Source: a virus. Taken from it: DNA of 31,200 nt. Shown here in pieces: positions 1,237-25,120 of the stretch. Position 1 is the stretch's first letter; the number at the start of each line of letters is the position of its first letter. A program made the position numbers and the translations under genes. The notes below the pieces were generated by a model, which made no database searches, had not been told where the DNA came from, and saw only the letters and a list, made by a program, of their open reading frames with translations. The DNA lies in the IMG/VR virus record IMGVR_UViG_3300045988_101844, positions 1 to 31,200 of that record. One strand, written 5' to 3'.

Positions 1237-1241
1237 ACAAA

Positions 1242-1276
1242 AAGGAGGGTTATTTGCCCTCCTTTTCTTTTTTATT
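1242..1276. terminator. bidirectional rho-independent terminator between convergent modules
   Basis: Stem aaggaggg (1242-1249) pairs with ccctcctt (1257-1264) around a 7-nt loop. A T-run (ttcttttttatt) follows on the plus strand and tttgtttatt follows on the minus strand. The stop of the minus-strand HNH gene (1250-1252) lies in the loop. Confidence 0.7.
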
Positions 1277-4479: not shown

Positions 4480-5071
4480 AAATAAATTTATTGTTTTTAT
4501 AAGGTCTATTTTCTTTTAAAGCTAAATATAATCCAGAACGTTCTCCATTAACTGATTTAACAGCTTCTTTCATTGAATTATATCTTGCAATAAAATTCCC
4601 ATTCATATCAAATCTTAATATAGGCTTAACTCTAGTAATTCGTCCTTTGGAAGCATTTCCAATTTTAATAAGTGTTTCCAAAGTATAGATTCCTTTCTTT
4701 CCTTTATTCCAGGGTGTTTTACCTTTTTTAGAATTTGACATTTTTGCTCTACTCTCATTAGAAAAAGAATACCCGTATGTACCTTCTCCTCCTGATGTTA
4801 TATTGTAACCATTTTCAGGAGTATTTGTTTTATATTTATGTATCAATATTCTCTCTAACGTCTTAGCGCAAGCTTCTGGTAAATTATCTTTAATTATGAT
4901 ATGTTCAAATCCATCTCAGCTATATTTTTGTATCGCTTTATAAAAGTAAGCTTGAGTAGAGTATCCATATCCATTTTTTCACCTAGCTTGCGCACTTTGT
5001 CCAGTAATGCCAAAATATAGCTTATTGTTATACTTATTTATATGGCAATAAACAGTATAATTATTCAACAT
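4463..5071 (-). CDS. GIY-YIG homing endonuclease with NUMOD3-like repeats, 202 aa (code 4)
   Basis: Track ORF 4463..4846 is only the C-terminal part. The same frame upstream is open to ATG 5071 through TGA at 4979-4981 and 4916-4918. This gives YCHINKYNNKLYFGITGQSAQAR[W]KNGYGYSTQAYFYKAIQKYS[W]DGFEHIII, with both TGA at Trp positions conserved in the family. Overlaps the portal end by 11 nt and the next gene start by 17 nt. Confidence 0.9.
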
Positions 5072-6152
5072 TTTGTTTGCTATCTTCTTGTCCATTTGGA
5101 GTTAAGCTAAAAGGAGTTATAGTTATTGAACCTTTCATTCCAAATATCTTATCAAATGTATCTACTATTTCGACCTGAATTGGTCTAACTACTGTACGAT
5201 TATAAAGTTTAAAAGCTTCATTAAATTCTTGTTCGTTGAATCCACTTGAGTAGTTAAGGCCAAAAAGTACACTATTAGCTCTAAATGCGCAGAATATCTG
5301 TTCTCTTGTTCTATCAGATAAAGCACTATATTTCTCATCAAAATCATCAGAATCTAAACGCTCAATAGTAGTCTTATTTGTTTCATCATCATTATATGAA
5401 ATAAGAACTCTACCAGCATTTTGAAATCCTGAGAATTTCTCATTAATATTCATCTCAATCTCTTCTTTAACTTCATCTGTAGGCTGTCCATTATTAAAGT
5501 TAATGATAAGATTGCCCATAAATCCGTTATGAAGAGAATTTAGATGGAACTCATTAATATTCTTCTCAGTTTCGCAAGATAGGATAGCTGCACCATAAAC
5601 AGGGACTGGATATACTTTTCTTGTTATATAGCCCTTATTATAAACAACACTTGTAGGATTATCATCTGAATAATTAAATTTTGGATATTTGATAGCTTTA
5701 ATAGACCAAGCAGACCAATCATCGGCATAATAGAATACTTCATTCTTTTCATCAGAACGAATCTTCATAAAGTCAAGATGATATATTTCTGAAACTCTAC
5801 CTACCATATCTCTAATTATTTGTAAAGCATATCCTCCAAAAATCATCTTATCTTTAGATACTTTACGCATAATATCCATAATAGTCTCACCTTTCTTATT
5901 TACAGTTACTTCAAATCCTGGTGCATTACATATAACATCATTACCAACAATAAAGTCAGCAGTACCATTAATGATAGATTGAAGAGTAGCTACATTTAAA
6001 TATAAATCCCATAAATATACAGGATAGCGATTATCTTCACCCCAAGAAATATAGTCCTTACCTCTAACTTTACCTTCTACTGGCAATACGATGTTTGATA
6101 CAATTACTGGATCAATTGCACTTAATTGTACTTTTGTTTTATTTTCGCTCAT
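5061..6152 (-). CDS. portal protein (HK97-family-like), 363 aa
   Basis: Track ORF 5061..6209; I prefer the start at ATG 6152 (MSENKTKVQ). Portal-like pattern: FSGFQNAGRVLISYNDDE...IERLDSDDFDEKYSALSDRTREQIFCAFRANSVLFGL. No TGA codons. Confidence 0.7.
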   Translation of the reverse strand: MSENKTKVQLSAIDPVIVSNIVLPVEGKVRGKDYISWGEDNRYPVYLWDLYLNVATLQSIINGTADFIVGNDVICNAPGFEVTVNKKGETIMDIMRKVSKDKMIFGGYALQIIRDMVGRVSEIYHLDFMKIRSDEKNEVFYYADDWSAWSIKAIKYPKFNYSDDNPTSVVYNKGYITRKVYPVPVYGAAILSCETEKNINEFHLNSLHNGFMGNLIINFNNGQPTDEVKEEIEMNINEKFSGFQNAGRVLISYNDDETNKTTIERLDSDDFDEKYSALSDRTREQIFCAFRANSVLFGLNYSSGFNEQEFNEAFKLYNRTVVRPIQVEIVDTFDKIFGMKGSITITPFSLTPNGQEDSKQNVE

Positions 6153-7625: not shown

Positions 7626-7645
7626 ATTATATATTTAAAATGACT

Positions 7646-8260: not shown

Positions 8261-8262
8261 CG

Positions 8263-8499
8263 TTATTTAACTTTTATTGATTCTTCATACTCTTTTGAAG
8301 CTGTTTTAGCAGTTTCTTTATATTCAGAATCCTGCTCTAATGTTATCTCTCTTAAATGTTCTAAATCACAATTTAATGGACAAATACACTCTTTAAATGA
8401 GTTATACCCTTTAATATCCATTTCGTCTTTATAGTTAGTAAGAAGCATATTATCTTCAGGTTTAACTACTTTATACTTTTCTTTAATTTCAATTTTCAT
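8263..8499 (-). CDS. small protein, paralog of 12040..12261 (possible fibre assembly factor), 78 aa
   Basis: Intact track ORF. Shares the Y-K-D/E-x-x-DIK-x-Y...CPL pattern and the same cassette position with 12040..12261. Confidence 0.55.
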   Translation of the reverse strand: MKIEIKEKYKVVKPEDNMLLTNYKDEMDIKGYNSFKECICPLNCDLEHLREITLEQDSEYKETAKTASKEYEESIKVK

Positions 8500-8506
8500 A
8501 GTGTAT

Positions 8507-9424: not shown

Positions 9425-9425
9425 A

Positions 9426-12038
9426 TTACTCTACAATTAAATATTGAGTATTTGGATCTTTACTTGAAATAGCATCATATTCAGATTGAGTTACCACAAG
9501 AATAGTATGAACTTGTGGTTGAGTTCCACTTCCATAAGTAACTGGATTAGAAACGCTCTCAATATCTATATTTCCACTACCTAACAAGCTTTCTCCATTA
9601 ACTGTCTTGATATTTGTTCCACTAACTAAAGTATCTTGTTTATTTCCTAATCCTGCATTTAATTCAGTTTCCGTAACATATTCATCAGGAATAGAAGTTA
9701 AAAATCCACTATCATTAGTAAGCTCAGATGTCTTAGTTGGTATACCTAAATCTGATAAACTCTTATTGCCAGATAACTCAACAGAATTAATCTGAGGTTT
9801 ATTTGTTAACTGAGTATAATCGGTAGTCCCTCCACTACCAGATATTTCAAGATTACCTTCTCCTAAAATACTTTCACCATTAATAGTCTTTATATTAGTC
9901 CCAGAGACTAATTGCTCCTGATAACTATGATAACTAGTATCTGCTGATACTCCAGTTGGAGTAATAGTAGTTTGAACTACAGTATGATTAGCTGTAGTAC
10001 TTTCAAAATGGAAAGTAGCTTGAATATTTTCTCCTGAAACAAAACATACTTCTGGAGCTGCTATATCACCATAACCTAGAATATTTACATAATAAAGCTC
10101 AAATGGTGTTTTATTAGCTATAGCATTCTTAACAGCAGCGAAATCTCCAGAAAGATGAGTAGTGGAATTTATAAATAGAAATGGAATATTAGAACCACTT
10201 TCAATTTCTATATTACCTTCTCCAAGTAAAGACTGACTATTGATTGTTTTGATATTAGTTCCACTTACAAGTAAATCTTGCTTAGTAGCCATCTCTTTAT
10301 CAAGAGAATCAATCTTATCTCCATCTTCTTCTTGTTTTGTTTTAATAATTGATATATCTGAAGTATTAGTTGCTACTTGAGTAGATAAAGATTCTACCAC
10401 AGAAGAATCAGCTTTACCAGCAAGTTCTGTTTTTGTTGCATAATCTCCTACAGGCTGTTTAGTAGCAAGCTGCTCATCAACATAAGTCTTATCTGCTTTA
10501 CCTGCTAAATCTCCAGAAACCTCTGTTTCAGTTACAAAGTTAGAATCATTAGTAAGCTCACTAACTTTAGTTGGAATATCACTCTTTAAAGCATAATCTC
10601 CTTTATCTTGTTTTGCATCAATCTTACTTTGTAAAGAAGATCTTAGAGTCTCAATTTCCTCATTAACTGAATCGTTAGTTGCATAATCACCAACTGGTTG
10701 GTATCCAGATAAATCTACAGATAACTGAGTCTTATCTTCATTAAAAGCTAATGGAGCTTGAGGAGCAAATACTCCTTGTTTTTCCTCAAGTTTGGCATCT
10801 ACTTCTTCTTTAGTATATCCTTTATTAGTAAGATCAACCTCAGTAACTTTAACAGTCATATTACCATTATTTACTAAGATTGCATTAATAACTACTAATA
10901 CACCATTATCTTGGAAATAATAACCATATAAATCAATAGTTTCGGGATGCTCAATAGTTGCAACAGGAATAACTATAATATCACCTTTATATGTAATCTG
11001 GCAGAATAAATAGAAGTCCAGATTAGTTCTAATAAAGTCATAGATATGTTTCTGTCTTACAGGATCATTCTCATCTAAATTAAGTAAGAAATGATTCTCA
11101 AAAGCAGAGATTACATTATCTATAATAGATATATTCTTTCCTGCTGTAAGCGTTTCCTGTTTTGAAGCTATCTCTTTATTAATAGCTGTATTTAAAGCAT
11201 CAATTTCAGCTTTGGTATATTTATCTGCTAATTGTGCATATAGAGGACCATTAACAATACCAGCTTGGTTAGTCTCTGTATTATATATTGGAAGTTCAAC
11301 TGCTTCTCCAGTTTGATTACCAAATACAGGAGCTAAAGTAACTTTAGATGGGACTGATTGAATATTAATGGCAGGTACGATTGAAGCTGCTCCAGATAAT
11401 TCAGTTCCATTTAAAGATGGTTTGTTACGAATAGTATTATAATCTGCGGAAATAGTATTCTCTTCAATTACTATACCGTCACCTTGGTTTAATTTATTCT
11501 GTTTAGAATTTAATGCACTTTCAGTAGCTTCTTTTGTAAGATAATTATCTTCAACTCATTTTTCAGTAGCATATCCATCTAAGCTACTAATAAACCCACT
11601 ATCATTAGTTAATTGTGAAGTTTTTGTTGGTATCTCAGATTTATCGGCTTTATTGGCAACTGCATCTGAAATTTCAGTTGTAACCTCTTCTTTAGTTGGA
11701 TAATCAGCTAATCGTTCAGTTATCTGATTATCAATATTTTCAGCACTTGGAATAGTACTCTTTATTTGCTCTAACTCAGAATTAATAGTAACAATATCTT
11801 CAGATGACGCTAATCCCAACTCTTCCGAAGTCATATTACCATTTAACTCAATACTATTGATCTCAGGTTTATCCTGAAGATCAAAATAGCTATTAGTAGC
11901 TAACTGAGAACCATCCATAACCTTAACTTCATCATCCTTGTCAATAACAATAACTTTAGTCACATTTGACTTATCTATTGTTTCGACTTCAAGGACATTA
12001 AGATAAGGAAGAATTGTCTTTTCAGTTTCGTTTGCCAT
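9426..12038 (-). CDS. long tail fibre protein A, 870 aa (code 4)
   Basis: Track ORFs 11556..12038 and 9426..10859 share a frame. I translated 10860..11555 codon by codon and found no stop and no Met, which is why the track shows nothing there. Single TGA at 11556-11558 (ATEK-W-VEDNYL). Repeated SELTNDSGF and LVSGTNIKTINGESLLGEGNIEI motifs. Confidence 0.8.
9558..10271 (-). repeat. three intragenic copies of a 24-aa fibre repeat (LVSGTNIKT[IV]N[GS][EQ]S[LI]LG[ES]GN[IL][ED]I)
   Basis: Copies at 10200..10271, 9840..9911 and 9558..9629 within fibre A. Conserved at the protein level and partly at the DNA level. Confidence 0.8.
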
Positions 12039-12039
12039 A

Positions 12040-12261
12040 TTATTTATTTTTATAAGATTCCTCTTGTTCTTTTAAATATCTTTCATTTGTTTCTGCATCA
12101 ATAACCCTATAAATAGATATATCAAAGGTTAAAGGGCAATATAAAATAGTTGATGCACTATACTCTTTAATATCATCACCTTCTTTATATGAGGTAATAA
12201 AATATCCTTCATCAGAGTATAACTTTATAAATATGCTAGTTTCAATATGTAAATGTTCCAT
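12040..12261 (-). CDS. small protein, paralog of 8263..8499, 73 aa
   Basis: Intact track ORF. The ATG shares a base with the upstream TAA (TAATG). Confidence 0.55.
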   Translation of the reverse strand: MEHLHIETSIFIKLYSDEGYFITSYKEGDDIKEYSASTILYCPLTFDISIYRVIDAETNERYLKEQEESYKNK

Positions 12262-13355
12262 TATGCTAATATCCAGTTTTTATTAGTAGCTATTGCTTTC
12301 TGTTCATCTGATAATTTTGCCAGATTATTTGCTCCTAAATTTAAAGTCTTACTATCCTCTCCAGTTAAATCAACTAAAGCATTAATTACAGATAATAATG
12401 ATTCTAGGGTTAAATCACTATGTAACCATAATCCCGCTCTTAACTCTCCTTCTATAGTTAGATTAGTTAACATTGAAGCACCTGCAAATATACCACTATA
12501 CTCTTGTTCTTGTTCACTATAACTAGATATATTTATAGTAGCATCAGTTAAAGAAGTGCAGTTAGTAAACATATAACCAGCACTATGAAGTGAGCTTAAA
12601 TTGGATTTAAATGTTCTTAAATTATAACAGCCAGAAAACATCTCTGTTGCATCACCAACATTTGGAAGATCAATCTCAAAAGATGTTAGATTAGAATTTG
12701 TGCATTTATGAGATGCATCAACTAAATTTTCCCAACCTACAACATTTGCAGGAACTTCTGCAGCAGTAAAATAAGCTAAGTTAACTACAGCTTGTGTAAT
12801 ATCATAAGTTGAAGAAGTTGGCACATTAACAATTACATCAATAAACTCCATATAATCATATCCATCTGCAGGATGAATCATTGTAGTTCCATTCTCTGTA
12901 ATAGTAACTTCTCTATGCTCCTCAACTGGAATCTCTACATCTACTTCAATACTTGATAAACCTTGATAGCCAGCATCAGGTTTAACTTCAGTCATTGATA
13001 GGTTTTTATCTATTGTTATATGTTTCTCTTGTAAAGTAGGAGTTGGTACTGGAACATTTATTTGTGCAGAAACCTTCTCCATAACATCATAATCTGGATC
13101 AGGTAAAATATCTATTAATCCGTTAGATGTAATTGTAATCTCTTTAGTAGCTTGTACTGTAGGAACAACAACATCAACAGATACATTTACTTTCGACATA
13201 CCATCATAACCCTCATCTGGAGTTACAACGAACTCAGCATTCTGAGTATATTCTACAGACTTCTCCTGTAATTTACATTCTTGAGCAGCTAAAGCTTCAA
13301 TATCTCTTGAAGTTGTATTCTTTGCTACTTCTGGTGTTGTATATTTAATAGCCAT
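12261..13355 (-). CDS. BspA/DUF285-like leucine-rich-repeat tail protein, paralog A, with N-terminal Ig-like repeats, 364 aa
   Basis: Intact track ORF. About four repeats of the pattern P..GYDG.S.V.V.V.VP, then ATEMFSGCYNLRTFKSNLSSLHSAGYMFTNCTSLTD (DUF285/BspA-like LRR). C-terminus LSDEQKAIATNKNWILA. No TGA codons. Confidence 0.75.
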   Translation of the reverse strand: MAIKYTTPEVAKNTTSRDIEALAAQECKLQEKSVEYTQNAEFVVTPDEGYDGMSKVNVSVDVVVPTVQATKEITITSNGLIDILPDPDYDVMEKVSAQINVPVPTPTLQEKHITIDKNLSMTEVKPDAGYQGLSSIEVDVEIPVEEHREVTITENGTTMIHPADGYDYMEFIDVIVNVPTSSTYDITQAVVNLAYFTAAEVPANVVGWENLVDASHKCTNSNLTSFEIDLPNVGDATEMFSGCYNLRTFKSNLSSLHSAGYMFTNCTSLTDATINISSYSEQEQEYSGIFAGASMLTNLTIEGELRAGLWLHSDLTLESLLSVINALVDLTGEDSKTLNLGANNLAKLSDEQKAIATNKNWILA

Positions 13356-13361
13356 TTTCTA

Positions 13362-13370
13362 TAAAATATA
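13362..13370 (-). promoter_or_regulatory. TATATTTTA motif (candidate phage promoter element)
   Basis: The minus strand reads TATATTTTAT, 6 nt upstream of ATG 13355 and just after terminator 13392..13428. Confidence 0.3.
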
Positions 13371-13391
13371 AATAGTTAATTATCTGTCCAT

Positions 13392-13428
13392 AAACAAAAT
13401 AAGGGGCAAGTAAATTAATACTCGCCCC
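13392..13428 (-). terminator. rho-independent terminator after the capsid module
   Basis: Stem ggggcaagta (13403-13412) pairs with tactcgcccc (13419-13428), with one mismatch and a 6-nt loop. The minus strand continues ttattttgttt. Confidence 0.7.
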
Positions 13429-13438
13429 TCTTCTGTTG

Positions 13439-13963
13439 TTAAGCACCTACAACACTTTGAATAGCTTCAGCACTCAACTCATAAGGATATGATTCAGAGT
13501 CAGTAGCTAAAGTCAGCGTATAAGCGTTCTGATCACCTTTTGCAGTACCAGTAACACCCGTACCAGCGGAAGCGCTTACATAGTCATCTTTTCCTAAGAA
13601 CCAGTATTTGCCATTAGAATCTTCTACAACAACTACAAGTTGTCCAATAGAAAGAGCAGCAATCTCGATTCTTTTCTTAGTCTCCATCTTTGTAAATACA
13701 AGAGCAAGCTCATTACTTACATAGTTGGTTCCTGCAGTTTCGTCAACGTTCAATGTTGAGGTTAGAGAACCAGTACCTTTGCGGAATTGGTAATTATACC
13801 ATTTAGCATCTGATTCAAGAGTAATAGCTGAGATTTGATTAGTCTCATCATCTACAGTTACACTCTTAACATTATCGTACTGAGTAATCCATACCTGTTT
13901 GATACCACCAAGCGAAGATTCGCAATCCAGGGTAATACCAGCGATAGTTATTAAACAAGCCAT
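13439..13963 (-). CDS. beta-rich virion protein, 174 aa (possible tail-tube-like or head decoration protein)
   Basis: Intact track ORF directly downstream of the major capsid gene. Higher GC than its surroundings and no TGA. The tube-like impression (SNGKYWFLGKDD...GTGVTGTAKGDQNAYTLTL) is weak. Confidence 0.6.
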   Translation of the reverse strand: MACLITIAGITLDCESSLGGIKQVWITQYDNVKSVTVDDETNQISAITLESDAKWYNYQFRKGTGSLTSTLNVDETAGTNYVSNELALVFTKMETKKRIEIAALSIGQLVVVVEDSNGKYWFLGKDDYVSASAGTGVTGTAKGDQNAYTLTLATDSESYPYELSAEAIQSVVGA

Positions 13964-14001
13964 ATAATTTCAATCTTATTTAAAGTTAAACTCTATTGAA
14001 A

Positions 14002-14907
14002 TTAGGCTTTGGCACCAAGAACTACCTCATCAGGGAATGCAACCTGTACGCCAGCGTTAAATTCAATAGCTAATCTAAATTCGCGGAAATCTTGTGAATA
14101 CCACAATTCAAACTTCTCTTCATCGTTCATCATATCGCAACCATAGAAGAAGTTCTTATCTAACTGACCAGCAACAATCTTATCAGTTCCATTAAGACCA
14201 TTAACAGCGATTACTTTAACCTGCGAACCAGGAAGCATAATCTCACCATTAAGATTCTCACCACTATAGTGGTAGTAGTTCTTAGCAACTAACTCCTGGA
14301 TAAATTTACGGAAAGTATCACTGCCAACTAAGATAGAAGCACCATCCAGAACCTTCTCAGGAATAGCGTTATAAACAGTCATAATGTCATCATAAGCAGA
14401 TGCTCCAGTAATTACTACATCAACAACCCCATCAGCAGCACCAAGGATCTTTAACAGACCATCAAAATACTTCAGGTTATTTGTTCCAGAAGCAGTATCA
14501 CCCTGCCAAATAGCAGTCTCAATAGCAGCCTTAACATTCTCAACTACTGCATTTACGAAATCCTCTTCAAAAGGAAGCGTCTTCTGACCAGCAGCTACTC
14601 GTACTTGATACTGAGTCCAGTATTTAAGCATCTCTTTATCACAATATGCCATATTGATCTTAATATTACCAGTAGCTAGAATTCTCTGAGAAAGAGTCTG
14701 AGTTCCAGCTTCATCCCAACCACAAGCTAGGCCATCGCCAAACTGAATAGCAGTTGATAACAGGTTAAGAGCAGCACTAGTTTTGATGTCAGTTTGAAGA
14801 TTGAACAACGAAGCACTCTTAGCCTTTAATACAGCCTCTTTAATAAGAGGAAGACGTCTCTGCTCTACATAAGCAGTAAGACTAGTCATTACAGGACTAT
14901 TTGCCAT
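14002..14907 (-). CDS. major capsid protein (HK97-fold family), 301 aa
   Basis: Intact track ORF. Capsid-like features include ETAIWQGDTASGTNNLKYFDGLL and the position after scaffold and protease. All four Trp are TGG. Confidence 0.85.
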   Translation of the reverse strand: MANSPVMTSLTAYVEQRRLPLIKEAVLKAKSASLFNLQTDIKTSAALNLLSTAIQFGDGLACGWDEAGTQTLSQRILATGNIKINMAYCDKEMLKYWTQYQVRVAAGQKTLPFEEDFVNAVVENVKAAIETAIWQGDTASGTNNLKYFDGLLKILGAADGVVDVVITGASAYDDIMTVYNAIPEKVLDGASILVGSDTFRKFIQELVAKNYYHYSGENLNGEIMLPGSQVKVIAVNGLNGTDKIVAGQLDKNFFYGCDMMNDEEKFELWYSQDFREFRLAIEFNAGVQVAFPDEVVLGAKA

Positions 14908-14929
14908 AATTTTATAAATAATTTAATAA

Positions 14930-15532
14930 TTAACCAATAAAGTTTTTAAGCTTTTTATCAATAACAGGATTGCCAGTCATTATTGAAGCTTTACCTTCTA
15001 TCTGTTCCTCAGCTGAAAATGCAGCACTCATTTTGCTCATCTTTTCAACCGTCTTTTCTGTAGCTTCAGATTTACCCTCTAATTCAGCTACTTTCTTAAC
15101 AAGCTTATCAACAATGTCATAAAGCTCATTAATTTCGCGATGAATTGCATCAATTGCATCAGTTACAGTTTCTTTGTCACCATCAGTAGCTACTTCAGGA
15201 TCAACTGACTCTTCAGCAGTTTCTACCTTGCGTTTTCCACAAGCAGCATCAACTTCTGCTTTAGCTGCTTCTTCTGGATCAACCTCAGCTTTAGGATCAG
15301 TTACAGACTCTACTTTACCGTCTTTAACAACAATCGTCTTTCCATCCTCAGTTACATACTCACCATCCTCAGCAGGTTTGTATTCTCCGTTCTCATCCTG
15401 AACATATACATCCATACCAGCGCGTAAGTCTTCATCTGAATCCCAAGTAAGTACTGCCTTATCAGTTTTAATATCACTGAACTTTGCAAGCATTTTAGCC
15501 AATTCAAGCTTGATTCTTGTGAATTTGCTCAT
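14930..15532 (-). CDS. scaffolding-like protein, 200 aa
   Basis: Intact track ORF. Acidic, with a helical/coiled C-terminus (INELYDIVDKLVKKVAELEGK). Lies between the protease-like and capsid genes. Confidence 0.6.
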   Translation of the reverse strand: MSKFTRIKLELAKMLAKFSDIKTDKAVLTWDSDEDLRAGMDVYVQDENGEYKPAEDGEYVTEDGKTIVVKDGKVESVTDPKAEVDPEEAAKAEVDAACGKRKVETAEESVDPEVATDGDKETVTDAIDAIHREINELYDIVDKLVKKVAELEGKSEATEKTVEKMSKMSAAFSAEEQIEGKASIMTGNPVIDKKLKNFIG

Positions 15533-15545
15533 TTAATTAATAATT

Positions 15546-16139
15546 TTAATGTTTAACTCTTTTTATCTTCTTAATCATATTAAGGATCTCTTTTATTTCG
15601 TCATATTCATCAGACTTTCTCTCTAAAGTAAATAAACCTTCAATTGAGAACCCTTTAAACTTACCAGCTTTAATTGCATCTCAAATAACTTGATTATCTA
15701 CTTTATAAGTGGCAAATAAAGAACCATCAGGAACATCCTGGAATTCAACTGGAGATATTCCTCTATTAATATCCTTTACATAGATTTCTTGTAGAGTAAT
15801 TCCATTTAAATCAGAATCTTCTAAATGTTCAATATTTACATCTGTAGTTCTCTTATCATACAGCATCTTCTCTGCCATTTTACGAAGAGTTTCCTTATCA
15901 TACTGTATGTAGTATTCTCCGAGTTTCTCATCTCGTCTGAAAATTGGAGTATCACTTAACATTAAGCAAGATGTTACTAAATGCTTATCTTCATCCATCG
16001 AGAACTTCTGAGAATTACTAAAAGCAACCCAGTTAACTTGTGTAGCTGGTTTACTTGTTAAAGCAACATATTCTATTCCATCACAATCATCAGTAATCAC
16101 TGCCTGAAATAATGGAAGATCATTATAAGTAATTTCCAT
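15546..16139 (-). CDS. XkdF-like (peptidase S78_2-type) putative prohead protease, 197 aa (code 4)
   Basis: Track ORF 15681..16139 ends at TGA 15681-15683. Read-through gives DNQVI-W-DAIKAGKFKGFSIEGLF..., the conserved XkdF C-terminal motif. TAA at 15546-15548. Confidence 0.7.
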
Positions 16140-16251: not shown

Positions 16252-19020
16252 TTAGAATGAAGCATTAGATTCAGTAACTGCTACCTTAGTTTGAGCTGAA
16301 GTAATGTCAGATTCAACAACATAACACTTAACAGGTTCATTTAAAAGGTCAGTTTCTTTATCTCCAAGTAAGTTTCGAGTATATTCAACAGGAGCTGTAT
16401 TTAAAGCAGCTGGTGCTGCCACTGCTGCAGATGCTCCACTCACTCCACTTGCACCTGATTCATCTACTTCTCAAATCTTTTTAACATTTGCAATACCTGC
16501 AACTACTGCGGCTGCAGCTGCAGCAATACCTAAAGCAGGACCTACAATAGGAATTCCTGCCATAGCAGAGTATGCGCTATTTGCTGCTGAATAAGTGTCA
16601 ATTAATGCTTGAGCAGTAGCAAATCCTTTACCTACTTTACTTTCCTCTCCTCAAATACTTGCCATACTTCCAGCAATACTAGAAGCTACAGATAAAGTAC
16701 TTTGTAAAGCTTGCTGCCTTGCTTTTTGAAGATTTTGATAAGCCTGAGTATTTGCCTGTTCATTAGCTAATTGAGCATCTGATAAGGCCATATTATTCTC
16801 AGTAAGAGTTCTTTGAATTTCCTCTTTTTGTTCAGCAGTTAATTGTTCATTCATTAATTGCTGACTTAATAAGGCATTCTCTTGCTCTATTCTACCTTGA
16901 GTTAATGAGAGTAAGTTGTTATTGTATTCAATTTGAGCATTGTATTGATTCTCTAAGTCCTCTCTACTCTGATATGTAAATTTATAACCAGTCCCTTCAT
17001 AATCTCCAGCCAATCCAAATGCTTTCGATATACCTTGAGTATAAGTAGTCTGAAAGGTCTGCTCTCTTGGCTCTCTCAAATTACTTGTAGAAGATAAATC
17101 TCTAATCCTTTTTAATTCAGACTGTAGATCATTCCAAGCTTTATCTGCATCTGCTTTACGCTTAGCTTCTTCATCAGCTCTAGCTTTATCTCTAATCTTT
17201 TTAAGTTCTTCCTGATGCCAAGCTTCTACCTCTTCAATTCCCCTATTATACTTAATAGCTAATGCTAATAGTCTAATATATTCATCTTCAAGTTCATCTA
17301 CTGGGTCTTTATCCTCTAATCTCTTTTGAAGCCATTCATCAAATTCATTTATTACCTTCTTAGCTTCAGTAGTGTTCTTTGTAATAGTTGGAATATTAAA
17401 GAACCCACCATACTTTTTATTAGTATCTGCTACATCCTCAAATAGCTTTTTAAGCCTTTTCTCAATGTCTTTATTTAAATCATCCAACTGTTTATAAGTA
17501 TTCTCTTTATTTTGCTTTGTGTACTCATAAATTGTATTTGAATAATCTTTTCAGAACATTGCTGTAGCTTTAAAAGCCTGCCAAGCAGATGCCTCTCCAA
17601 AACTTGTATCAGAAATTTGATTCTCCAGTTCAGTACGTTTATTTAAATACTCCTCATAAAGCTTAATTGCAGCCTGTTCAATAGCCTGAGCTTTTGCTCT
17701 TGCAGTTAATGCTTCTACATAATTACCAGTATTATTTACAAACGCATCTTCTGCAGTCTTTACATCAGTGATATTTAAACCAGTCTCTTTAATCTTATCT
17801 GAATATTGCTCTATAAACTTACGCTTAGCATCTGCAGAATCTCCAACCCTTTCGTAAGCTATTTGTAACTCTCTAAAGATAGCTATAGATTTAGAAGCAA
17901 TCTGATTAGTAGTATCTGTAATAGACTTTCTAAATTCAGCAGCCTCCTTTTCAGCTGATTTTATTGAGGATATATACTCTATTATCTTATTAATAGCTAA
18001 TCCAATAGCTGTAGCTAATGCAATTCATACAGTTACATTACCAATAGTTTTAAGTGCAGTTTTAACTTTACCTACTCCAGAAGCAGCTTGTTCTGAAGCT
18101 TCAGCCATTGCTTTCTGAGCCTCTGCCCCTTTTCGCAAAGTTGGAATGCCTTTTTCTACATTTTCCTTTAATTCAGCAAGATCTACACCTAAACGTTTAG
18201 CAGCTTTCTGCATTCTCTCTGCTGGAGTTCCAGTCTCTTTTGCTGCTTCCTTTAAAAATTCAGCAACTGTAGTAAATGTAGGTTTTACTTCTTCAAAGGA
18301 CTTTTTTGCAGTTTCTCCTAATTTACCTATAATCGGAATCGTATTAGATACACTCTTATTAGTAGCAGATATTTCAGCAGGAGTGCCCATTACTCCTTGA
18401 ATCATACCTCCTTTAAAATTAATATTGGTGCCTTCTAAATCCTTGACTACTTTAGAGATATTACCTAATTCAGTTCCAACATTACCAACAGATGTGCCAA
18501 TGCCATTAAGCTTAGATGCATCAATCTGATTAAGATTTTTGGCAGCATTATTCAACCCTGTATTAAATGGAGAGATAAAATCAGTTAATTTCTTAAACCA
18601 ATTACCTAAAGTAGGCAATTCTTCTAATAAATCTTTTATACCTCCCACACCTTGTACTAATGCAATAGATGACTGTAACTTAACCATTACTTTAGTTAAA
18701 TCTTCAGATTCTTTCCCAAATAAAGTAATGGCAGCTGTTGCAGCTCCATATCCACTGGCCAAACCAGTGGATATTTTAGCTACACTTTCAAACCTTTGAG
18801 CAGTAGTTCTTGAAGATCTTGCTATCTGCTCATTAATTTTATTGAATTCTGATTGTCTCTTACCAAGTAATGAAAGAGTTTCATTATATTCCTTAGTACC
18901 AATCTCTAAATCATTCAGCGAATTAGTTAATGCATCAATATCTTTCTTTAAAGAGTTTATTGACTTATTACTTGACTTAGTATCAATACTAATAACCTTT
19001 TTAATTTCTGTTTGTGCCAT
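16252..19020 (-). CDS. tape-measure-like protein, 922 aa (code 4)
   Basis: Track ORFs 18025..19020, 16651..17487 and 16252..16443 share one frame. In-frame TGA at 18025, 17551, 16651 and 16471. I translated all gaps and found no TAA/TAG. Long helical regions and an Ala/Gly-rich hydrophobic segment (GIPIVGPALGIAAAAAAVVAGIANVKKI). Confidence 0.8.
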
Positions 19021-22000
19021 TATATTGTAATATTTTTAACAGTATCTTCTGTTAGTGTTAAATTCTCTGTATATTTAACTGTTCCTGTAGGTCCATCAGT
19101 CACTTCAAATTTAAACTGAACACCTTTTTGAGCATATATTCTATAATTTCCATTATCCTGCATATAAGCCACATTCAAGAAGTTATCGTTTTCTGTAAGT
19201 ATCTGATTTACCCCAGTTGGTATAGTGCCACTTGGAGTTTCTAATTTGCCTGTAATAAGAACAGCTTTATTTGGGTCTGGAGTTTGAGTAAACATACATT
19301 TAGGACCATCTACGCCTCCTTGTTTATAAAGACTAAAGTAGAAACTCCTTTGATTATATTTAGTATTCTCATTATAAGTAACTGTTAATTCTGTTTCTCC
19401 AGGTTGCCCAGATTCAGGTGTAATGCTTACAATTTCATTTGGACTATATCATCCTAATTCTCAAGGAATATTAGAAGTAACTGTAATCTTTTTAGTCCCA
19501 GCTTTATAATCTACAACTGGATCTGAATCATCAAATGATATATATTCACCTAGATTTTGAACTCCAGCTAAATAACTATTAATATCTTGAACTTTAATAA
19601 ATTCACATCTAACTGTAGAATCTGAATTAATATCATAAGCATCAATCTTATTAAGTATCCAGTAAGAATCTTCAAAATAATAGAACTGTCTAAGTAAATC
19701 ATACTTAACATCTAAATCATCTAATCTTACAAAGCAGGTAACTTTTTTAGTATTTACATCAAATTGATCATTATAAAATTCACTTCAGAATCTACTATAA
19801 ATAGTACTTCCGATATTATAAGTTATATCATCAATATAAATCTCTTGTGGTAATCCAAAATCTCAAGAAGCAGTAACATTAGAGGACGAAACGGTATACC
19901 TTGTAAATTGAGGTAATACAGTTCTCTTTATAGCAATTTTATTCCCACTAATATCTTTCTCACTTTTAGTAGATATATAACACATTTCCTGATCATTTAA
20001 TATGTTCATTTCTGTAAGATCATCTGTAATTCAATATGTTACTTCATTTCCTTTTACATCAGTTAAAGGAACATTACCGTTAAAGAATACTAGGGATTGA
20101 GAGATATCCTCTAAAGATTCCTCATTACCATCAATTGAGAAAAATACATTTTTGGCAAATATATCATTACCTGCGATTTTATATCATTCTGTGGTTTTAG
20201 AGGGATCTATAAAATTAGCTCCGTATAACTCTTGATCTATAGTCTTAAGTTCAGTAGTGCTATTATTAAATAATGTATAGGTAATATTATCATTCATAAA
20301 TGCAGGAACTACAAGGGAAGAAGAATTGTAAAAATTTCTAAAATATTTATTTCTCCATCTTGCAGAAACTATATTTTCATATATATTATCACTATACAGT
20401 TCAGTTGTTTCAGAATTAAAATTATAACCAGTATTTAATCTTTGTTGACCATATAATATAGAATATTCCTTATTGTATTTTTTATAAAAATAAGTTTCTG
20501 GACCTTCAGAACTCATTCTATATCACTTCTTATCAAATAATATTGGATTTACATTGAAATCTTTAGAATAATCTATTCTCTTACTCCAATCAGAGATTAT
20601 ATTCTTAAAGAAATTATTTCTAGTATATATTCTGATTGTTTTACTATCAATATCTTTTGTAAAATATAACCCAAATAGTTTTGCATAACTCAATAAGTAA
20701 TCAGCAGGAGATTGTTCTGTTTTTAATAATAATTTTTTAGTTAATAATGCATTACTTTGAAGTACCTCTGTAGAAGTAGTAATTTCAATGGGAGAAGTAA
20801 GATCTACTATAAGATCTCCTTTTGGAATAGCTTGGTAATCCTCTCCTCTTTCTATTACTTCACTTAATAATCCAGTAGGTCTAACACTATTTCCAGTAGA
20901 TCATACAACATTAAGTTTAATTTTAATTTTATTAATTGGAATTTTAAAATTTGTAATATTAATAACAAAATCATTAGTTAATGAAGAAGTATCATAAAAT
21001 ACATTATTTTGAAAATACCCAAAATGATTAACCCCATTAGCTATAGGATGTGAGTAGGTTCCTGAATTTGTAAATCTATGTATTTCAGAAGTATAAATAG
21101 TATCATCTACTTCATTAGTAATTGTTAGCCAAACATCAGCGTATCCTCTATATGCTGAATAAAAAGGAGGAGCAGAGGAGCTAAAATACCTTCTAAATCC
21201 AAAAAAATATCTATCCCCAACATTTCCTGCAGTTCGATTAAACTTTAACTTAAAATAAAAAGTTGTAGAAAGGCTTTTTCTAAATCCAGCCTCACTTAAA
21301 TCAATTATTCCAGAATCGTAAACAATATCAGGTGATGCAATGGATAATTTTAAAGGACTTGATGTAGATTCTCCTTTATTTATACCTACCTGATAATTAT
21401 ATTTACTATCTTCTACTAAAAAGCCAGATTCTGTTACATCTGCTTCGTCACTTACTAGATTAGATAATAAAGGTAAAGCTACAAAGGATTTACTTCAATA
21501 CGGATTATTTCAATTAAAAAATGAAGGATCAAATACTACATCATATCCAGAATTCTCTTTTCTACAGATAGTTTCAATTAACTTACTCAATTTTAAAGCT
21601 GGCCTCTGCATATAACTTCTAAGATCTCTCATCTCCCATTCTGTATATGCTCTATTTAATTTAGCTAATCCATACCCATTATAAGGTGTATATGTAACTC
21701 CTGAATCTGTCTTACTAGTAGGAAATATACTATTTTCATTAGTATTTATTAAACAACTTTCATTATCAAAATCTTCATATAAACCATTATATGCTGGAAT
21801 AAATGTCAAATAATCATATATTTGACTTCCTTCATTCGTTTTACTTCAGTCAAAACAAGTATTTACAAAATCTTTGTTAATATAAAAATTAAGTTCAGTA
21901 TCAGCAGGAAGTGTATTTCCATCTTCATCAGTTACAAAGTATTGTAAATCAGCAAGAGTCCTAATAGTACCATCTTCTTTATATTTAAGTCCATAGAAGA

Positions 22001-22376
22001 AATCTCCTAATCCTCCATATAAAGTAATATTATAAGTAATGACAGCTTGTTTTATAGATATACTATTTAATTGCATATATCCAGATTCAACTAAATAGCC
22101 ATTATTATAGATTCCAAAATCAACTCGTTTTGAAGGATCAAAATATACTCCAGAGAAATTACCTTCTTTTATATGGAGAAATCTATCTAACTTATAAATC
22201 TCTCCAAAAATCTTATTATTATTCTTTGTGCCAGGTATAGAAATCGTTTTACTAAACGAGTTCTTGACTATAGTGGGGTTTTGGAAATCCTCAACTGTAT
22301 AAGTTATAGGAAGACTAATTCCCTCACTACAGTCAACCTCTTTATTTGCAATAAATAATTTAATATTCTTTCTCAT
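19020..22376 (-). CDS. large tail/tail-tip (host-specificity-like) protein with C-terminal BACON-like domain, 1118 aa (code 4)
   Basis: Track ORFs 21846..22376, 21510..21809, 20184..20516 and 19020..19295 share one frame. Eleven in-frame TGA at 21846, 21510, 21495, 20901, 20523, 20184, 20031, 19863, 19785, 19461 and 19449. I translated all gaps and found no TAA/TAG. TAA at 19020-19022 overlaps the next ATG (TAATG). Confidence 0.8.
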
Positions 22377-22377
22377 T

Positions 22378-24558
22378 TTATTTTCTATATTTATCTTGAG
22401 AAGCTTCTACATTAATTGTATAATAGAACTTGTTTTTACCTTGATTAGTATAAGTTTTATATTCGCAATTTGTATCAGTAATCAATACTGGAGTGATAGT
22501 ATTATCTTTAAGATTATGCAAATATACTTTAGTACTCTCAATTAGATTAAACATCTTAGAAGCTTGAATATCATTTAAATAACCAGTATAAAGAACCCAG
22601 CTTGAAGTTATAGTATTCAAATACTTATTTCTTGCAAACTCTTGTGATGTATTTAATACCTTACGAGTATATGTTTCAGATTTAATCTCATCATTCTTTT
22701 TAACATTACCCTCAACAAGTAATGAATCCCATCCACCTGCTGAATTAGTATAATATAATACATAATCTTTACCTGTAGTATCTATATCATATCTAATCTG
22801 TCTATCACTAATATTTCCGTCTTCTACAAATCCTACTATTAAATAGCTCCCACAAGGCCATAGTTTATTGCTTAAATCTTCTGTATATGTATACCCATTA
22901 ATTCCAGAATTTAAACTAATATCCATAGCAGATTGTACTCCATCCATATAAAAGAATCTATTAATAACTCCAGTTCCAGTTGGTAGAATTCAACTTGATA
23001 CTAAATACTGCCTGGGATCAACTAAACCAGTAATAGGATCACTTAACATAGCGCCTTTAGTTAGATCTCTATCTTTATAACTCCAGTCATTGAAGAAAGT
23101 AATTGGTTTTTCATTTCCACTAGATGTCATCAAAGTAAATGGTTTCAAATATTCTGGAGATATTATAGTTTTAGAAGTATTAAATATAATACCGTTAGAT
23201 AGATAATTTTCAGCAACATTATTTAATAAAAACTCTACTCTATCAGTTTCAGGATATTTATAAGCTTTTCCAGCATAGACCGTATCCCCTGCATAATCTA
23301 AATGATATTCAATAAAATCTGAACTAATAATCTCTTCCCAAACATAATCTTTCCAAATAGGAGATATATCAGATTTAACAGATTGTGTAATATTAATAGA
23401 TAAATTAATAATACTTGAACTATTCTTTATAACAGATACTCCAATAGTTGCTTGTCTAGAAGATAAACCTGAATTTTCTGCAATGTTCAAACTAATAGTT
23501 GCTACACCTTGAGGATTCACAGTTATCTTCTGTCCACTAATCCAACCTACAGGAATGCTAAATACAACATCATCTAAGTTGTTTGAGCCTGTACCAGTTA
23601 TATTTAATGTAGATGCAGTTCAACTTACTTCATAATTAGTATTAGGAATCATTAAAGATGTTGCAGCTTGTTTAATTGGAACTGTAGCTTCAAGATTATA
23701 ACCTCCAGAAGTTGTTGCAGTAACCATTGCACTAAACTCCAAATTATTAGTAGTTTTATTCTCTGGAACAGTTAATACAAAATAGTTATCAACACTATCC
23801 TTTTTAATATTACTAGCTTGTGGACAGGTAACATTAAATGAAGTAATAGTTTCTTCTGTTTTAGTTGTACTTAAATGAAATTCTTCAGTAACAAAAGCAG
23901 CTGCTCCATAAGTTCCAGAAGAAGGAGTTACTACTAACTTTAAATCTTCAGGAGTATTACTCTTTTCAATCTTAAAGCCATAACTATAACTAATAAATTT
24001 ATTAGTATCATAATAAGCCCCTAATTGGATAGTTGCAGTTAAATCAGTATTTCATTGAGTATTAGCTCTTACTGTAACTTTAAACTTAATAGAGCAAGAA
24101 TCTCAATCCAGAACTTCCATATTAACTAAAGCTGTAGCATTAACAACTGCTGCATCTCATTTAATAATATCTGATCTATTTAATATATACTCTACTGTAT
24201 ATTCTCCACCAGTATTTGGTACTTTAATGGTGCCATTAGCAGGATAATATCCAGGAGCTTTACTATGTAAATTAATTGGTAAATCTTCCTCTAATAAAGC
24301 AGTAGTAATGCCTCTAGGATAAAAATGAAATACAGTAGAAGAATCAGTAGTTATTGTTGTAGGAGATAAAAATTGTATTGTACATCCTTCTTTACTTGGA
24401 TCCTGTATAGTTACATTTAAAGGCCCTTCTTCAGTATAATCATCTCCCCAAGTCCAATAATCATATTCTCCAGTAATTCCCCATCCAGGATTATTCCATT
24501 TAACAGGAAAACTCCTTGATGCATTATATATTCCTAATTTACTTGGTATAAATGCCAT
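22378..24558 (-). CDS. tail/virion surface protein with BACON-like/Ig-like repeats, 726 aa (code 4)
   Basis: Track ORFs 24157..24558, 22990..23520 and 22378..22947 share one frame. TGA at 24157, 24103, 24052, 23620 and 22990. I translated the 636-nt gap 23521..24156 and found it open. BACON-like segment VGWISGQKITVNPQGVATISLNIAENSGLSSRQATIGV. Confidence 0.8.
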
Positions 24559-25115: not shown

Positions 25116-25120
25116 TATAT

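What the first reader, a model, noticed from the sequence alone, without database searches (positions are those of the whole stretch)
11559..15680. A 4.1-kb interval free of TGA codons, with elevated GC, covers the capsid module while tail-tip genes are TGA-dense
There is no in-frame TGA between 11559 and 15680. This interval holds the fibre A N-terminus, a small protein, LRR paralog A, the 174-aa virion protein, the major capsid protein and the scaffold.

By my hand count, all 11 Trp in this interval are TGG. In the adjacent 1118-aa tail gene, 11 of 16 Trp are TGA. The 726-aa protein has 5 of 16, and the tape-measure-like protein has 4 of 9.

The 13.4-15.5 kb part is also visibly richer in GC. 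Single 60-nt lines that I spot-counted gave about 45% there, against about 22-33% in tail, fibre and early-region lines.

Possible explanations:
- Selection against a weakly decoded codon in the most highly expressed genes.
- A timing device, with TGA-rich genes translated only once a suppressor accumulates.
- Recent acquisition of the capsid module from a standard-code relative.

The three genes nearest the promoters at 29.65-30.93 kb are also TGA-free, but they contain only two Trp, so this is uninformative.
Basis: seen in the sequence. Interest (0 to 1): 0.65.

Follow-up and report, generated by a model that had tools for sequence, protein, structure and literature searches.

The report
Capsid genes avoid recoded TGA codon
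In this 31-kb gut phage that reads TGA as tryptophan, the genes for the most abundant virion proteins (major capsid and a tail-tube-like protein, probably also the scaffold) keep the standard TGG codon, which looks like ordinary expression-linked codon selection plus ancestry rather than a timing switch or a borrowed module.

Summary
No in-frame TGA lies between 11559 and 15680, all 11 Trp there are TGG, and the 1118-, 726- and 922-aa genes have 11/16, 5/16 and 4/9 TGA. GC is raised at 13.4-15.5 kb, but to 38% rather than 45%.

Within this one genome the run is not beyond chance (P=0.16 for the run, 0.29 for the gap, 0.19 for gene heterogeneity).

Eighty code-4 relatives show a narrower signal that is real:
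- The major capsid protein (MCP) gene has 2 TGA against 232 TGG in 59 distinct sequences.
- The downstream 174-aa tail-tube-like gene has 1 against 123.
- Their Trp columns switch codon far less often than Lys/Glu/Gln A/G sites in the same genes (2 observed, 14.5 expected; permutation P about 0.001).
- Tail and portal Trp columns switch at the neutral-like rate.

The MCP gene avoids A-ending codons generally, and it is GC-rich relative to its genome in standard-code relatives too. Its four Trp predate the code change.

The TGA richness of the 1118-aa tail gene is allele-specific (10-69%). Early genes use TGA as often as late ones.

Verdict: expression-linked selection plus ancestral TGG. It is not a timing device and not a recent import. 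This is an ordinary mechanism seen in a modestly new setting.

The parts
14002..14907 (-). Major capsid protein gene (301 aa): 0 TGA/4 TGG. It has the strongest G/C-ending and anti-A3 codon bias in the genome.
   Evidence: PHROG major head/virion protein hits. Lys/Glu/Gln G-ending fraction 0.69 against 0.25-0.40 elsewhere. ATA, CCA and AGG absent. 2 TGA/232 TGG in 59 distinct code-4 sequences.
13439..13963 (-). 174-aa protein, probably the major tail (tube) protein: 0 TGA/3 TGG.
   Evidence: AlphaFold model pLDDT 69, pTM 0.71. The best Foldseek matches are the tail tubes of phage 7-7-1, SPP1, lambda and Milano (E about 2e-3, weak). 1 TGA/123 TGG in 44 distinct sequences.
14930..15532 (-). Scaffold-like acidic coiled-coil protein (200 aa): 0 TGA/1 TGG.
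   Evidence: Lies between the protease-like gene and the MCP. Weak PHROG hit shared with the protease family. 1 TGA/37 TGG across relatives, but the Trp is not conserved.
15546..16139 (-). Prohead protease-like gene (197 aa). It holds the upstream boundary TGA at 15683-15681.
   Evidence: PHROG head maturation protease hits. Precomputed Pfam Peptidase_S78_2 (weak) on orthologues. This TGA sits on a Trp that all standard-code relatives share.
12261..13355 (-). BspA-type LRR protein (364 aa): 0 TGA/3 TGG here, but not TGA-free in relatives.
   Evidence: Weak Pfam LRR_5 hit. Orthologues carry 1/1, 1/5 and 2/2 TGA/TGG.
12040..12261 (-). 73-aa gene with no Trp codon. It is uninformative filler within the interval.
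9426..12038 (-). Tail fibre gene (870 aa). Its only Trp is TGA at 11558-11556, the downstream boundary of the interval.
   Evidence: In the 20 relatives that have this column the codon is always TGA.
19020..22376 (-). 1118-aa tail gene, 11 TGA/5 TGG in this allele.
   Evidence: TGA fraction is 0.62-0.69 in this allele, 0.32-0.42 in a 66-70% identical allele and 0.10-0.20 in a 56% identical allele, with about the same Lys/Glu/Gln A-ending fraction.
22378..24558 (-). 726-aa tail gene, 5 TGA/11 TGG.
   Evidence: TGA/TGG alternate at the same columns in relatives.
16252..19020 (-). Tape-measure-like gene (922 aa), 4 TGA/5 TGG.
   Evidence: DNA match to a tape measure gene. Its Trp columns switch codon at the neutral-like rate.
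5061..6152 (-). Portal gene (363 aa), 0 TGA/4 TGG here. It serves as a low-copy head-protein control.
   Evidence: PHROG portal hits. 25 TGA/144 TGG across relatives. Its Trp columns switch as often as expected (12 observed, 9.75 expected).

Best explanation
The window is a complete or near-complete ~31-kb tailed gut phage that reads TGA as tryptophan in early and late genes alike. Its lineage descends from standard-code ancestors, so old, conserved Trp positions started as TGG.

In most genes TGG and TGA now interchange roughly like other synonymous A/G pairs. In the genes whose products are needed in the largest numbers, purifying selection keeps TGG. These are the major capsid protein and the tail-tube-like 174-aa protein; for the scaffold this is assumed from its role. 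This belongs to a wider expression-linked codon bias in the capsid gene against A-ending codons.

TGA probably carries an extra cost, such as slower or less accurate decoding, or residual termination.

The raised GC of 13.4-15.5 kb has two sources of roughly equal size: the Ala/Gly/Val-rich composition of these proteins, and their G/C-ending codon choice.

The rest of the 4.1-kb interval (LRR gene, 73-aa gene, fibre N-terminus) is TGA-free by chance.

Shown here: the code, the counts, the codon bias, the conservation and the reduced switching. Inferred: high expression of these genes, and the decoding cost of TGA.
For: TGA means Trp:
- TGA and TGG alternate at the same alignment columns among near-identical relatives.
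- TGA falls on Trp positions that standard-code relatives share.

Comparative counts in 80 code-4 loci:
- MCP has 2 TGA/232 TGG and the 174-aa gene 1/123.
- The scaffold has 1/37.
- The protease has a TGA fraction of 0.10 and the portal 0.15.
- The tape measure has 0.40, the 1118-aa gene 0.40, the 726-aa gene 0.33 and the neck gene 0.32.

Codon switching (parsimony on each gene's own tree):
- The 7 conserved Trp columns of MCP plus the 174-aa gene changed twice. The G-majority Lys/Glu/Gln columns of the same genes predict 14.5 changes (Poisson P=6e-5; column-permutation P=0.0014).
- Tail genes show 66 observed against 77 expected, and the portal 12 against 9.75. Neither differs from expectation.

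General codon bias in the MCP:
- The G-ending fraction of Lys/Glu/Gln is 0.69, against 0.34 in the other genes.
- ATA 0% against 38%, CCA 0% against 45%, GGA 17% against 52%, TTA 25% against 58%, ATC 33% against 6%.

GC content:
- The same excess of GC and G/C-ending codons in the MCP over the rest of the locus is seen in most standard-code relatives, whose loci range from 28% to 56% GC.
- The GC excess splits into +0.042 from amino-acid composition and +0.054 from codon choice for the MCP. For the scaffold the split is +0.058/+0.024, and for the 174-aa gene +0.046/+0.043.

Ancestry and protein identity:
- The four MCP Trp are shared with most or all standard-code relatives compared.
- In the MCP tree the code-4 loci form one branch inside a standard-code family.
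- The 174-aa protein models as a tail-tube-like fold.
Against: - Within the window alone nothing is significant beyond pre-chosen contrasts.
- The comparative test rests on only 7 Trp columns. It treats Lys/Glu/Gln third positions as the neutral yardstick, uses NJ trees and ignores recombination.
- 10 of the 31 G-majority control columns in the MCP are also unchanged, so the Poisson P is too optimistic.
- The protease and the portal are TGA-poor without any sign of constraint. History therefore explains part of the head-versus-tail contrast.
- Expression was not measured. The host and its Trp-tRNA and release-factor set are unknown.
- The tube assignment of the 174-aa protein is weak (pLDDT 69, TM 0.3-0.45).
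- In crAss-like phages a tail-tube family is reported to prefer the recoded stop (preprint 10.1101/2021.08.26.457843, read). High-copy genes do not avoid recoded stops everywhere.
Confidence: 0.6

Rival explanations
1. Pure history without selection on TGA. All Trp codons were TGG when the lineage changed code. Conserved head genes keep old Trp positions that have not yet drifted. Tail genes are fast-evolving and mosaic, drawn from a wider code-4 gene pool, and so have gained new TGA Trp codons or had longer to drift.
For: - Overall TGA is 38% of Trp codons, against 66% A-ending for Lys/Glu/Gln. Trp codon usage is therefore far from compositional equilibrium.
- Trp positions shared with standard-code relatives are TGA in 4 of 18 cases, against 12 of 27 for lineage-specific Trp (my tally of the positions listed).
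- The portal and protease are TGA-poor yet switch codon at the expected rate.
- The TGA fraction of the 1118-aa gene depends on which allele a phage carries (0.10 to 0.69).
- Tail genes are visibly mosaic, at 56-99% identity among phages whose MCPs are 89-99% identical.
Against: - Synonymous A/G sites in MCP and the 174-aa gene changed often over the same tree (1.9-2.3 changes per G-majority column). Their Trp columns changed only twice in 7 columns (permutation P=0.0014).
- Four deep code-4 lineages with about 31-33% MCP divergence still have almost no TGA.
- The difference between old and new Trp is not significant.
Confidence: 0.25
2. A regulatory device. TGA acts as a translation brake, either as a timer that waits for a suppressor or as an attenuator that sets virion stoichiometry. 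Many TGA would hold down low-copy tail-tip proteins, and none would be placed in high-copy capsid and tube proteins.
For: - TGA load falls as presumed copy number rises: MCP, tube and scaffold about 0-3%, portal and protease 10-15%, tail proteins 32-40%.
- Published work proposes that recoded stops regulate late and lysis genes in gut phages (10.1101/2021.08.26.457843).
- 59% of genes here carry TGA, within the 26-71% range reported for phages of standard-code hosts.
Against: - No suppressor tRNA or other code-change gene was found.
- Early-region genes carry TGA as often as the other genes.
- The 1118-aa gene carries 2-4 TGA in some sibling phages and 9-11 in others.
- TGA/TGG switches in tail genes occur at the neutral-like rate.
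- An essential protein with 11 TGA implies efficient decoding.
Confidence: 0.08
3. The capsid module was recently imported from a standard-code, higher-GC relative and has not yet adapted to the new genome.
For: - The module is the GC maximum of the genome and is TGA-free.
- Standard-code relatives of this phage family exist.
Against: - The nearest standard-code MCPs are only 65-67% identical.
- All code-4 loci sampled in the MCP tree group together on one branch.
- The close relatives keep the capsid-gene order, with MCPs 88-100% identical.
- About half of the GC excess is amino-acid composition.
- The MCP shows a comparable GC excess over its own genome in most standard-code relatives.
Confidence: 0.03
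4. Chance: the 4.1-kb TGA-free run has no cause at all.
For: Window-only permutation tests give P=0.16 (run), 0.29 (gap) and 0.19 (heterogeneity). The left 1.9 kb of the interval is TGA-free only in this genome, or lacks Trp.
Against: The MCP and 174-aa core is almost TGA-free in 59 and 44 distinct sequences from 80 loci, with reduced switching.
Confidence: 0.04

Closest known systems
Translational selection on codon usage in highly expressed phage structural genes (a classic finding in phage genome-landscape studies; stated from my own knowledge, no paper read here)
   Same: The capsid gene shows a genome-atypical preference across many amino acids (GCT, GGT, ACT, CCT, CTT, ATC, TTC, AAC, AAG, GAG, CAG). 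It avoids ATA, AGG and most A-ending codons. The pattern is conserved in relatives.
   Different: The avoided codon includes a reassigned stop, and the avoidance of TGA exceeds that of other A-ending two-fold codons. The match to host tRNA pools could not be tested because the host is unknown.
Gene-family preference or avoidance of recoded stop codons in alternatively coded gut phages (Borges et al., preprint 10.1101/2021.08.26.457843)
   Same: The same kind of statistic (TGA against TGG per gene family) shows non-uniform use within one phage. Homing endonuclease genes are TGA-rich here too (9/13 against 36/104, P=0.03). This lineage has standard-code relatives at short distance and a low GC content.
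   Different: - In that study the avoided families were integrases and the preferred ones lysis, tail and endonuclease genes.
- Structural genes were described as the recoded unit, and early genes as standard code.
- Here early genes carry TGA, no suppressor tRNA is present, and the avoiders are the capsid and tube genes.
Native code 4 of Mollicutes (UGA=Trp, a tRNA-Trp with anticodon UCA alongside one with CCA, RF2 lost; as summarised in PMC10568206)
   Same: TGA and TGG are both Trp, and TGA is never needed as a stop (38 TAA and 3 TAG stops).
   Different: - From my own knowledge, AT-rich mollicutes use UGA for most Trp. Here TGA is only 38% despite GC3 of about 0.18.
- There are no Shine-Dalgarno motifs.
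- No mollicute or other code-4 host could be linked to the phage.

Membership tests
Phage using genetic code 4 (TGA = Trp) | Long conserved genes are broken by in-frame TGA under the standard code and become intact when TGA is read as sense | tested here: met
   For example, the 1129-codon frame 19020-22406 splits into 7 pieces under code 11. Coverage of the + strand by ORFs of 100 codons or more rises from about 0.8-0.9 to about 0.96 in relatives.
Phage using genetic code 4 (TGA = Trp) | TGA aligns with Trp (not Gly) in homologues | tested here: met
   TGA and TGG alternate at the same columns in near-identical relatives. TGA falls on Trp conserved in standard-code relatives, for example protease W153 and neck W66.
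Phage using genetic code 4 (TGA = Trp) | Phage-encoded TGA suppressor tRNA or other code-change machinery (often but not always present) | tested here: not met
   ARAGORN found 0 tRNAs. Rfam at E<=1 gave no tRNA. PHROG and Pfam scans of about 20 proteins found no release factor or Trp-tRNA synthetase. The paper itself reports suppressors in only 35% of code-4 phages.
Late-gene recoding as a timing switch (Borges model) | Early genes in standard code, recoded stops confined to late structural and lysis genes | tested here: not met
   The early region and the + strand module carry 10 TGA/13 TGG, against 35/59 elsewhere (P=0.64). Only the first three genes lack TGA, and they have just 2 Trp.
Late-gene recoding as a timing switch (Borges model) | Host uses the standard code | not testable with these tools
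   The genome scan gave only two distant MAG hits, at 48-49% MCP identity. The long contigs turned out to be chimeras with another phage.
Translationally selected codon bias of highly expressed genes | Bias spans many synonymous families, not only Trp | tested here: met
   Relative codon usage of the MCP against the other genes. G-ending and C-ending fractions per gene.
Translationally selected codon bias of highly expressed genes | Bias is conserved in orthologues, including across different genome GC contents | tested here: met
   The MCP against the rest of the locus in 13 distant relatives with loci of 28-56% GC: GC is higher in the MCP in all 13, and the G-ending fraction of Lys/Glu/Gln is higher in all 13.
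Translationally selected codon bias of highly expressed genes | Reduced synonymous change at the favoured codon relative to neutral sites | tested here: met
   Trp columns of MCP plus the 174-aa gene: 2 changes against 14.5 expected, permutation P=0.0014.
Translationally selected codon bias of highly expressed genes | Favoured codons match the host's abundant tRNAs, and the gene is measurably highly expressed | not testable with these tools
   The host is unknown and there are no expression data. High expression is inferred from the known stoichiometry of capsid, scaffold and tube proteins.

The most novel reading that the evidence does not exclude
The phage infects a standard-code host. Pointers in that direction are the lack of Shine-Dalgarno motifs and two Bacteroidota-type promoter matches in the early region. 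It carries no suppressor tRNA of its own, so TGA would be read by an unknown mechanism with imperfect efficiency: a host mechanism, a co-infecting phage (for example the ~168-kb code-4 phage that shares a fibre repeat), or a protein-based mechanism. The number of TGA codons per gene would then act as a built-in attenuator that helps set virion protein ratios. The capsid and tube genes would be kept TGA-free because they must be made in hundreds of copies.
Probability: 0.07. Interest if true: 0.75.

Novelty: new member of a known kind. Interest (0 to 1): 0.3.

Why it matters
The result gives indirect, sequence-only evidence that a reassigned stop codon is still somewhat costlier than the standard codon in a phage that uses it freely elsewhere. 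That bears on how recently and how completely such phages changed code, and on how they decode TGA without a suppressor tRNA of their own.

It also sounds a caution. Patchy use of a recoded stop along a phage genome need not be a regulatory switch. Ancestry, mosaic tail genes and ordinary expression-linked codon selection can produce the same picture.

In practice, TGA-free capsid genes are called correctly under the standard code even though the phage is recoded, which could mislead code prediction from marker genes.

Tried and rejected
Host identification:
- A scan of 185,579 species genomes with the MCP gave only two distant hits at 48-49% identity: an 'Azospirillum sp. CAG:239' MAG and a Bacteroidaceae MAG.
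- Cluster look-ups gave only 'Bacteriophage sp.' names.

Long contigs that might have been prophage-host junctions (193, 176 and 149 kb):
- For the 193-kb scaffold, the non-matching part belongs to a ~168-kb phage that also has in-frame TGA.
- The join lies in a 78-bp shared fibre repeat, so this is an assembly chimera and not an integration site.
- The 149- and 176-kb contigs were not aligned.

Search for a suppressor: ARAGORN and a permissive Rfam scan found no tRNA. The 264-nt gap at 25050-25313 looks like a terminator followed by a promoter.

Codon context: the base after TGA against the base after TGG (chi-square P=0.26) and position within the gene (P=0.33) show nothing.

Bacteroidota promoter motif TTTG-N17-21-TAnnTTTG: 2 matches against 1.46 expected, so not evidence on its own.

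DNA similarity to deposited phages: only a 132-bp tape-measure match.

The fibre TGA at 11558 as a real stop or read-through site: rejected. There is no restart codon downstream, and other fibre repeats have an aromatic residue at the matching position. The 726-aa gene has a similar column fixed for TGA.

Direct terminal repeats: none in the window.


Full report
WHAT THE WINDOW IS

The 31,200-bp window is 30.4% GC. Nearly all genes lie on the minus strand.

Under the standard code the long frames are chopped up. For example, 19020-22406 falls into seven pieces. With TGA read as sense they become 726-, 1118-, 922- and 870-aa proteins.

Running from 31 kb down to 1 kb, the gene order is:
- early and regulatory genes;
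- large terminase (27238-25955);
- a neck protein;
- two large tail proteins;
- the tape measure (19020-16252);
- a protease-like gene (16139-15546);
- the scaffold (15532-14930);
- the major capsid protein, MCP (14907-14002);
- a 174-aa protein (13963-13439);
- LRR and fibre cassettes;
- the portal (6152-5061);
- homing endonucleases;
- an M15 endolysin (2043-1591).

A small plus-strand module sits at 8-1236.

Related contigs are 29-32 kb long, so the window is about one genome.

No tRNA is found by ARAGORN or by a permissive Rfam scan. Start codons lack Shine-Dalgarno motifs. All 41 genes end in TAA (38) or TAG (3).

THE CODE

TGA is tryptophan, not glycine.
- Among relatives with near-identical proteins, TGA and TGG alternate at the same alignment columns.
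- TGA falls on Trp that standard-code relatives conserve.
- TGA falls on the Trp position of the 'NL.W' stretch of the plus-strand HNH endonuclease, where the other HNH gene in the window also has Trp.

CHECKING THE OBSERVATION

- The flanking in-frame TGAs are at 15683-15681 and 11558-11556.
- The 11 Trp codons between them are all TGG.
- The three tail genes have 11/16, 5/16 and 4/9 TGA.

GC is raised over 13.4-15.5 kb. The 60-nt lines average 0.381 against 0.298 elsewhere (P=2e-12).

- With 45 TGA and 72 TGG in the genome, a TGG run of 11 or more occurs in 16% of label shuffles.
- A gap of 4125 bp or more occurs in 29% of shuffles.
- Gene-wise heterogeneity has permutation P=0.19.
- Only pre-chosen contrasts are nominally significant: scaffold+MCP+174-aa 0/8 against 45/64 (P=0.023), and the 1118-aa gene against the rest (P=0.012).

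RELATIVES CHANGE THE PICTURE

Searches with the MCP returned 54 viral and 56 metagenomic loci. Eighty of the loci held, including a few reached by other look-ups, are code 4 by the gain in ORF coverage.

Counts in distinct sequences are as follows.

| Gene | TGA | TGG | TGA fraction |
|---|---|---|---|
| MCP (59 sequences) | 2 | 232 | 0.009 |
| 174-aa gene (44 sequences) | 1 | 123 | 0.008 |
| Scaffold | 1 | 37 | 0.026 |
| Protease-like | 8 | 74 | 0.10 |
| Portal | 25 | 144 | 0.15 |
| Neck | 7 | 15 | 0.32 |
| 726-aa tail gene | 130 | 261 | 0.33 |
| Tape measure | 105 | 159 | 0.40 |
| 1118-aa tail gene | 264 | 395 | 0.40 |

Shared ancestry inflates such counts. I therefore counted parsimony changes on each gene's own tree. 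The yardstick was conserved Lys/Glu/Gln columns in which G is the majority third base.
- The seven conserved Trp columns of MCP plus the 174-aa gene changed twice, against 14.5 expected. The Poisson P is 6e-5. A more honest column-permutation test gives P=0.0014, because the control columns are over-dispersed.
- Tail genes changed 66 times against 77 expected, and the portal 12 times against 9.75. Trp codons there behave like ordinary synonymous sites.

The conserved signal is therefore 15532-13439, and strictly the MCP and 174-aa genes. The LRR gene has TGA in its orthologues. The 73-aa gene and the fibre N-terminus simply contain no Trp.

WHY THESE GENES

The MCP has a broad, genome-atypical codon preference.

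| Codon or class | MCP | Other genes |
|---|---|---|
| G-ending Lys/Glu/Gln | 0.69 | 0.34 |
| ATA (of Ile) | 0% | 38% |
| CCA (of Pro) | 0% | 45% |
| GGA (of Gly) | 17% | 52% |
| TTA (of Leu) | 25% | 58% |
| ATC (of Ile) | 33% | 6% |
| GCT (of Ala) | 79% | 51% |
| ACT (of Thr) | 88% | 59% |

This is the usual signature of selection on a very highly expressed gene, and TGG over TGA fits its general avoidance of A-ending codons.

The 174-aa protein models as a beta-sandwich with a helix. Its best structural matches are tail-tube proteins of SPP1, lambda, 7-7-1 and Milano. The scores are weak (pLDDT 69, E about 2e-3). If it is the tube, the TGA-free genes are the three proteins made in the largest numbers.

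THE GC RISE

For the MCP, +0.042 of the GC excess comes from amino-acid composition (Ala 11%, Gly 7.6%, Val 8.3%) and +0.054 from codon choice. For the scaffold the split is +0.058/+0.024, and for the 174-aa gene +0.046/+0.043.

The MCP is 2-9 points (usually 4-9) richer in GC than its own locus, with more G-ending Lys/Glu/Gln codons, in the standard-code relatives compared, whose loci range from 28% to 56% GC. The rise is a property of the gene family, not a sign of foreign origin.

ANCESTRY

In an MCP tree the code-4 lineages form one group. That group is sister to standard-code phages (L038, L100; 65-67% identity) and lies inside a standard-code family.

Old Trp positions therefore began as TGG. 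All four MCP Trp are shared with most or all standard-code relatives compared.

Genome-wide, TGA is 38% of Trp codons, while A-ending codons make up 66% of Lys/Glu/Gln. Trp codon usage has not reached compositional equilibrium.

History therefore contributes to the head-versus-tail contrast. It may fully explain the low TGA of the portal and protease, which show no excess constraint.

AGAINST A TIMING DEVICE
- Early genes use TGA as often as the other genes (10/13 against 35/59, P=0.64).
- No suppressor is encoded.
- The TGA richness of the 1118-aa gene belongs to the allele and not to the function. The fraction is 0.62-0.69 in this allele, 0.32-0.42 in a 66-70% identical allele and 0.10-0.20 in a 56% identical allele. 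The Lys/Glu/Gln A-ending fraction is nearly the same in all three.

AGAINST RECENT IMPORT
- No standard-code MCP closer than 67% identity was found.
- The close code-4 relatives keep the capsid-gene order, with MCPs 88-100% identical.

COMPARISON WITH WHAT IS KNOWN

Borges et al. (10.1101/2021.08.26.457843) ran the same kind of per-family test of TGA against TGG.
- They reported integrases that avoid recoded stops.
- They reported lysis, tail and intron-endonuclease families that prefer them.
- They proposed timing control in phages of standard-code hosts.

This phage shares with that study the low GC, the close standard-code relatives and the TGA-rich homing endonucleases (9/13 against 36/104, P=0.03). 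It does not fit the pattern of early genes in standard code and late genes recoded. Its avoiders are the capsid and tube genes, a case not mentioned in the preprint text I read and searched.

The mechanism I favour is ordinary codon selection. I therefore file this as a new member of a known kind.

OPEN POINTS

The host and the decoder of TGA remain unknown.
- The species-genome scan gave only distant hits.
- Of the contigs of 149-193 kb that carry this phage type, the 193-kb one is a chimera with a ~168-kb phage that also has in-frame TGA. The join lies in a 78-bp fibre repeat. The other two were not aligned.
- Efficient decoding is implied by an essential protein with 11 TGA and by the neutral-like switching in tail genes.

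Noticed in passing
window about 10210-10290 (fibre gene); L057 12082-12159; L117 3141 onward: One 193-kb scaffold joins this 31-kb phage type to a ~168-kb phage that also has in-frame TGA. The join lies in a 78-bp stretch shared by both fibre genes. This looks like an assembly chimera, and it suggests a common gene pool and perhaps a common host. Two other long contigs with this MCP variant (149 and 176 kb, L017 and L072) may be the same but were not aligned.
   Followed up: partly
window 28451-28966, 4463-5095, 3287-3787, 1250-1588 (minus); 8-793 (plus): Five homing-endonuclease genes (HNH and GIY-YIG) are TGA-rich: 9 TGA/4 TGG against 36/68 elsewhere (Fisher P=0.03). This echoes the recoded intron endonuclease reported in Agate phages. 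In relatives a GIY-YIG gene sits between the MCP and the 174-aa gene (L057, L059).
   Followed up: partly
whole window; early region 27186-31200 and 1-1236: This code-4 genome of 31 kb has no detectable tRNA, release factor or Trp-tRNA synthetase, yet it has TGA in early-region genes. How TGA is decoded, and in what host, is unknown.
   Followed up: partly
window 31131-31161 and 30128-30158 (minus): Two matches to the Bacteroidota promoter pattern TTTG-N19-TAnnTTTG lie just upstream of the first early genes. Together with the absence of Shine-Dalgarno motifs this hints at a Bacteroidota host. The motif count is not above chance (2 against 1.46 expected).
   Followed up: partly
window 11556-11558 (fibre codon 161); 726-aa gene alignment column 134 (window Trp 134): Some Trp columns are fixed for TGA in every relative that has them (20/20 and 25/25), the mirror image of the TGG-fixed capsid columns. 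No cause was found.
   Followed up: no
window 19020-22376 and orthologues in L001-L046: The 1118-aa tail gene exists as at least three main allele classes (about 98%, 68% and 56% identity to the window's protein). They occur in phages with nearly identical capsid genes and have very different TGA loads. Tail modules are exchanged as cassettes.
   Followed up: partly
window 6639-13355: There is a repeated cassette architecture: three LRR-type proteins (13355-12261, 9424-8507, 7625-6639), each next to a small 73-78-aa protein or a fibre-like protein (12261-12040, 8499-8263, 8260-7646). The cassettes separate the capsid genes from the portal gene, an unusual order for a head module.
   Followed up: no
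window 1237-1275 and 25095-25125: Strong GC-rich hairpin terminators: a bidirectional one between the converging plus-strand module and the minus-strand genes, and one just upstream of the neck gene, followed by an AT-rich promoter-like stretch.
   Followed up: no
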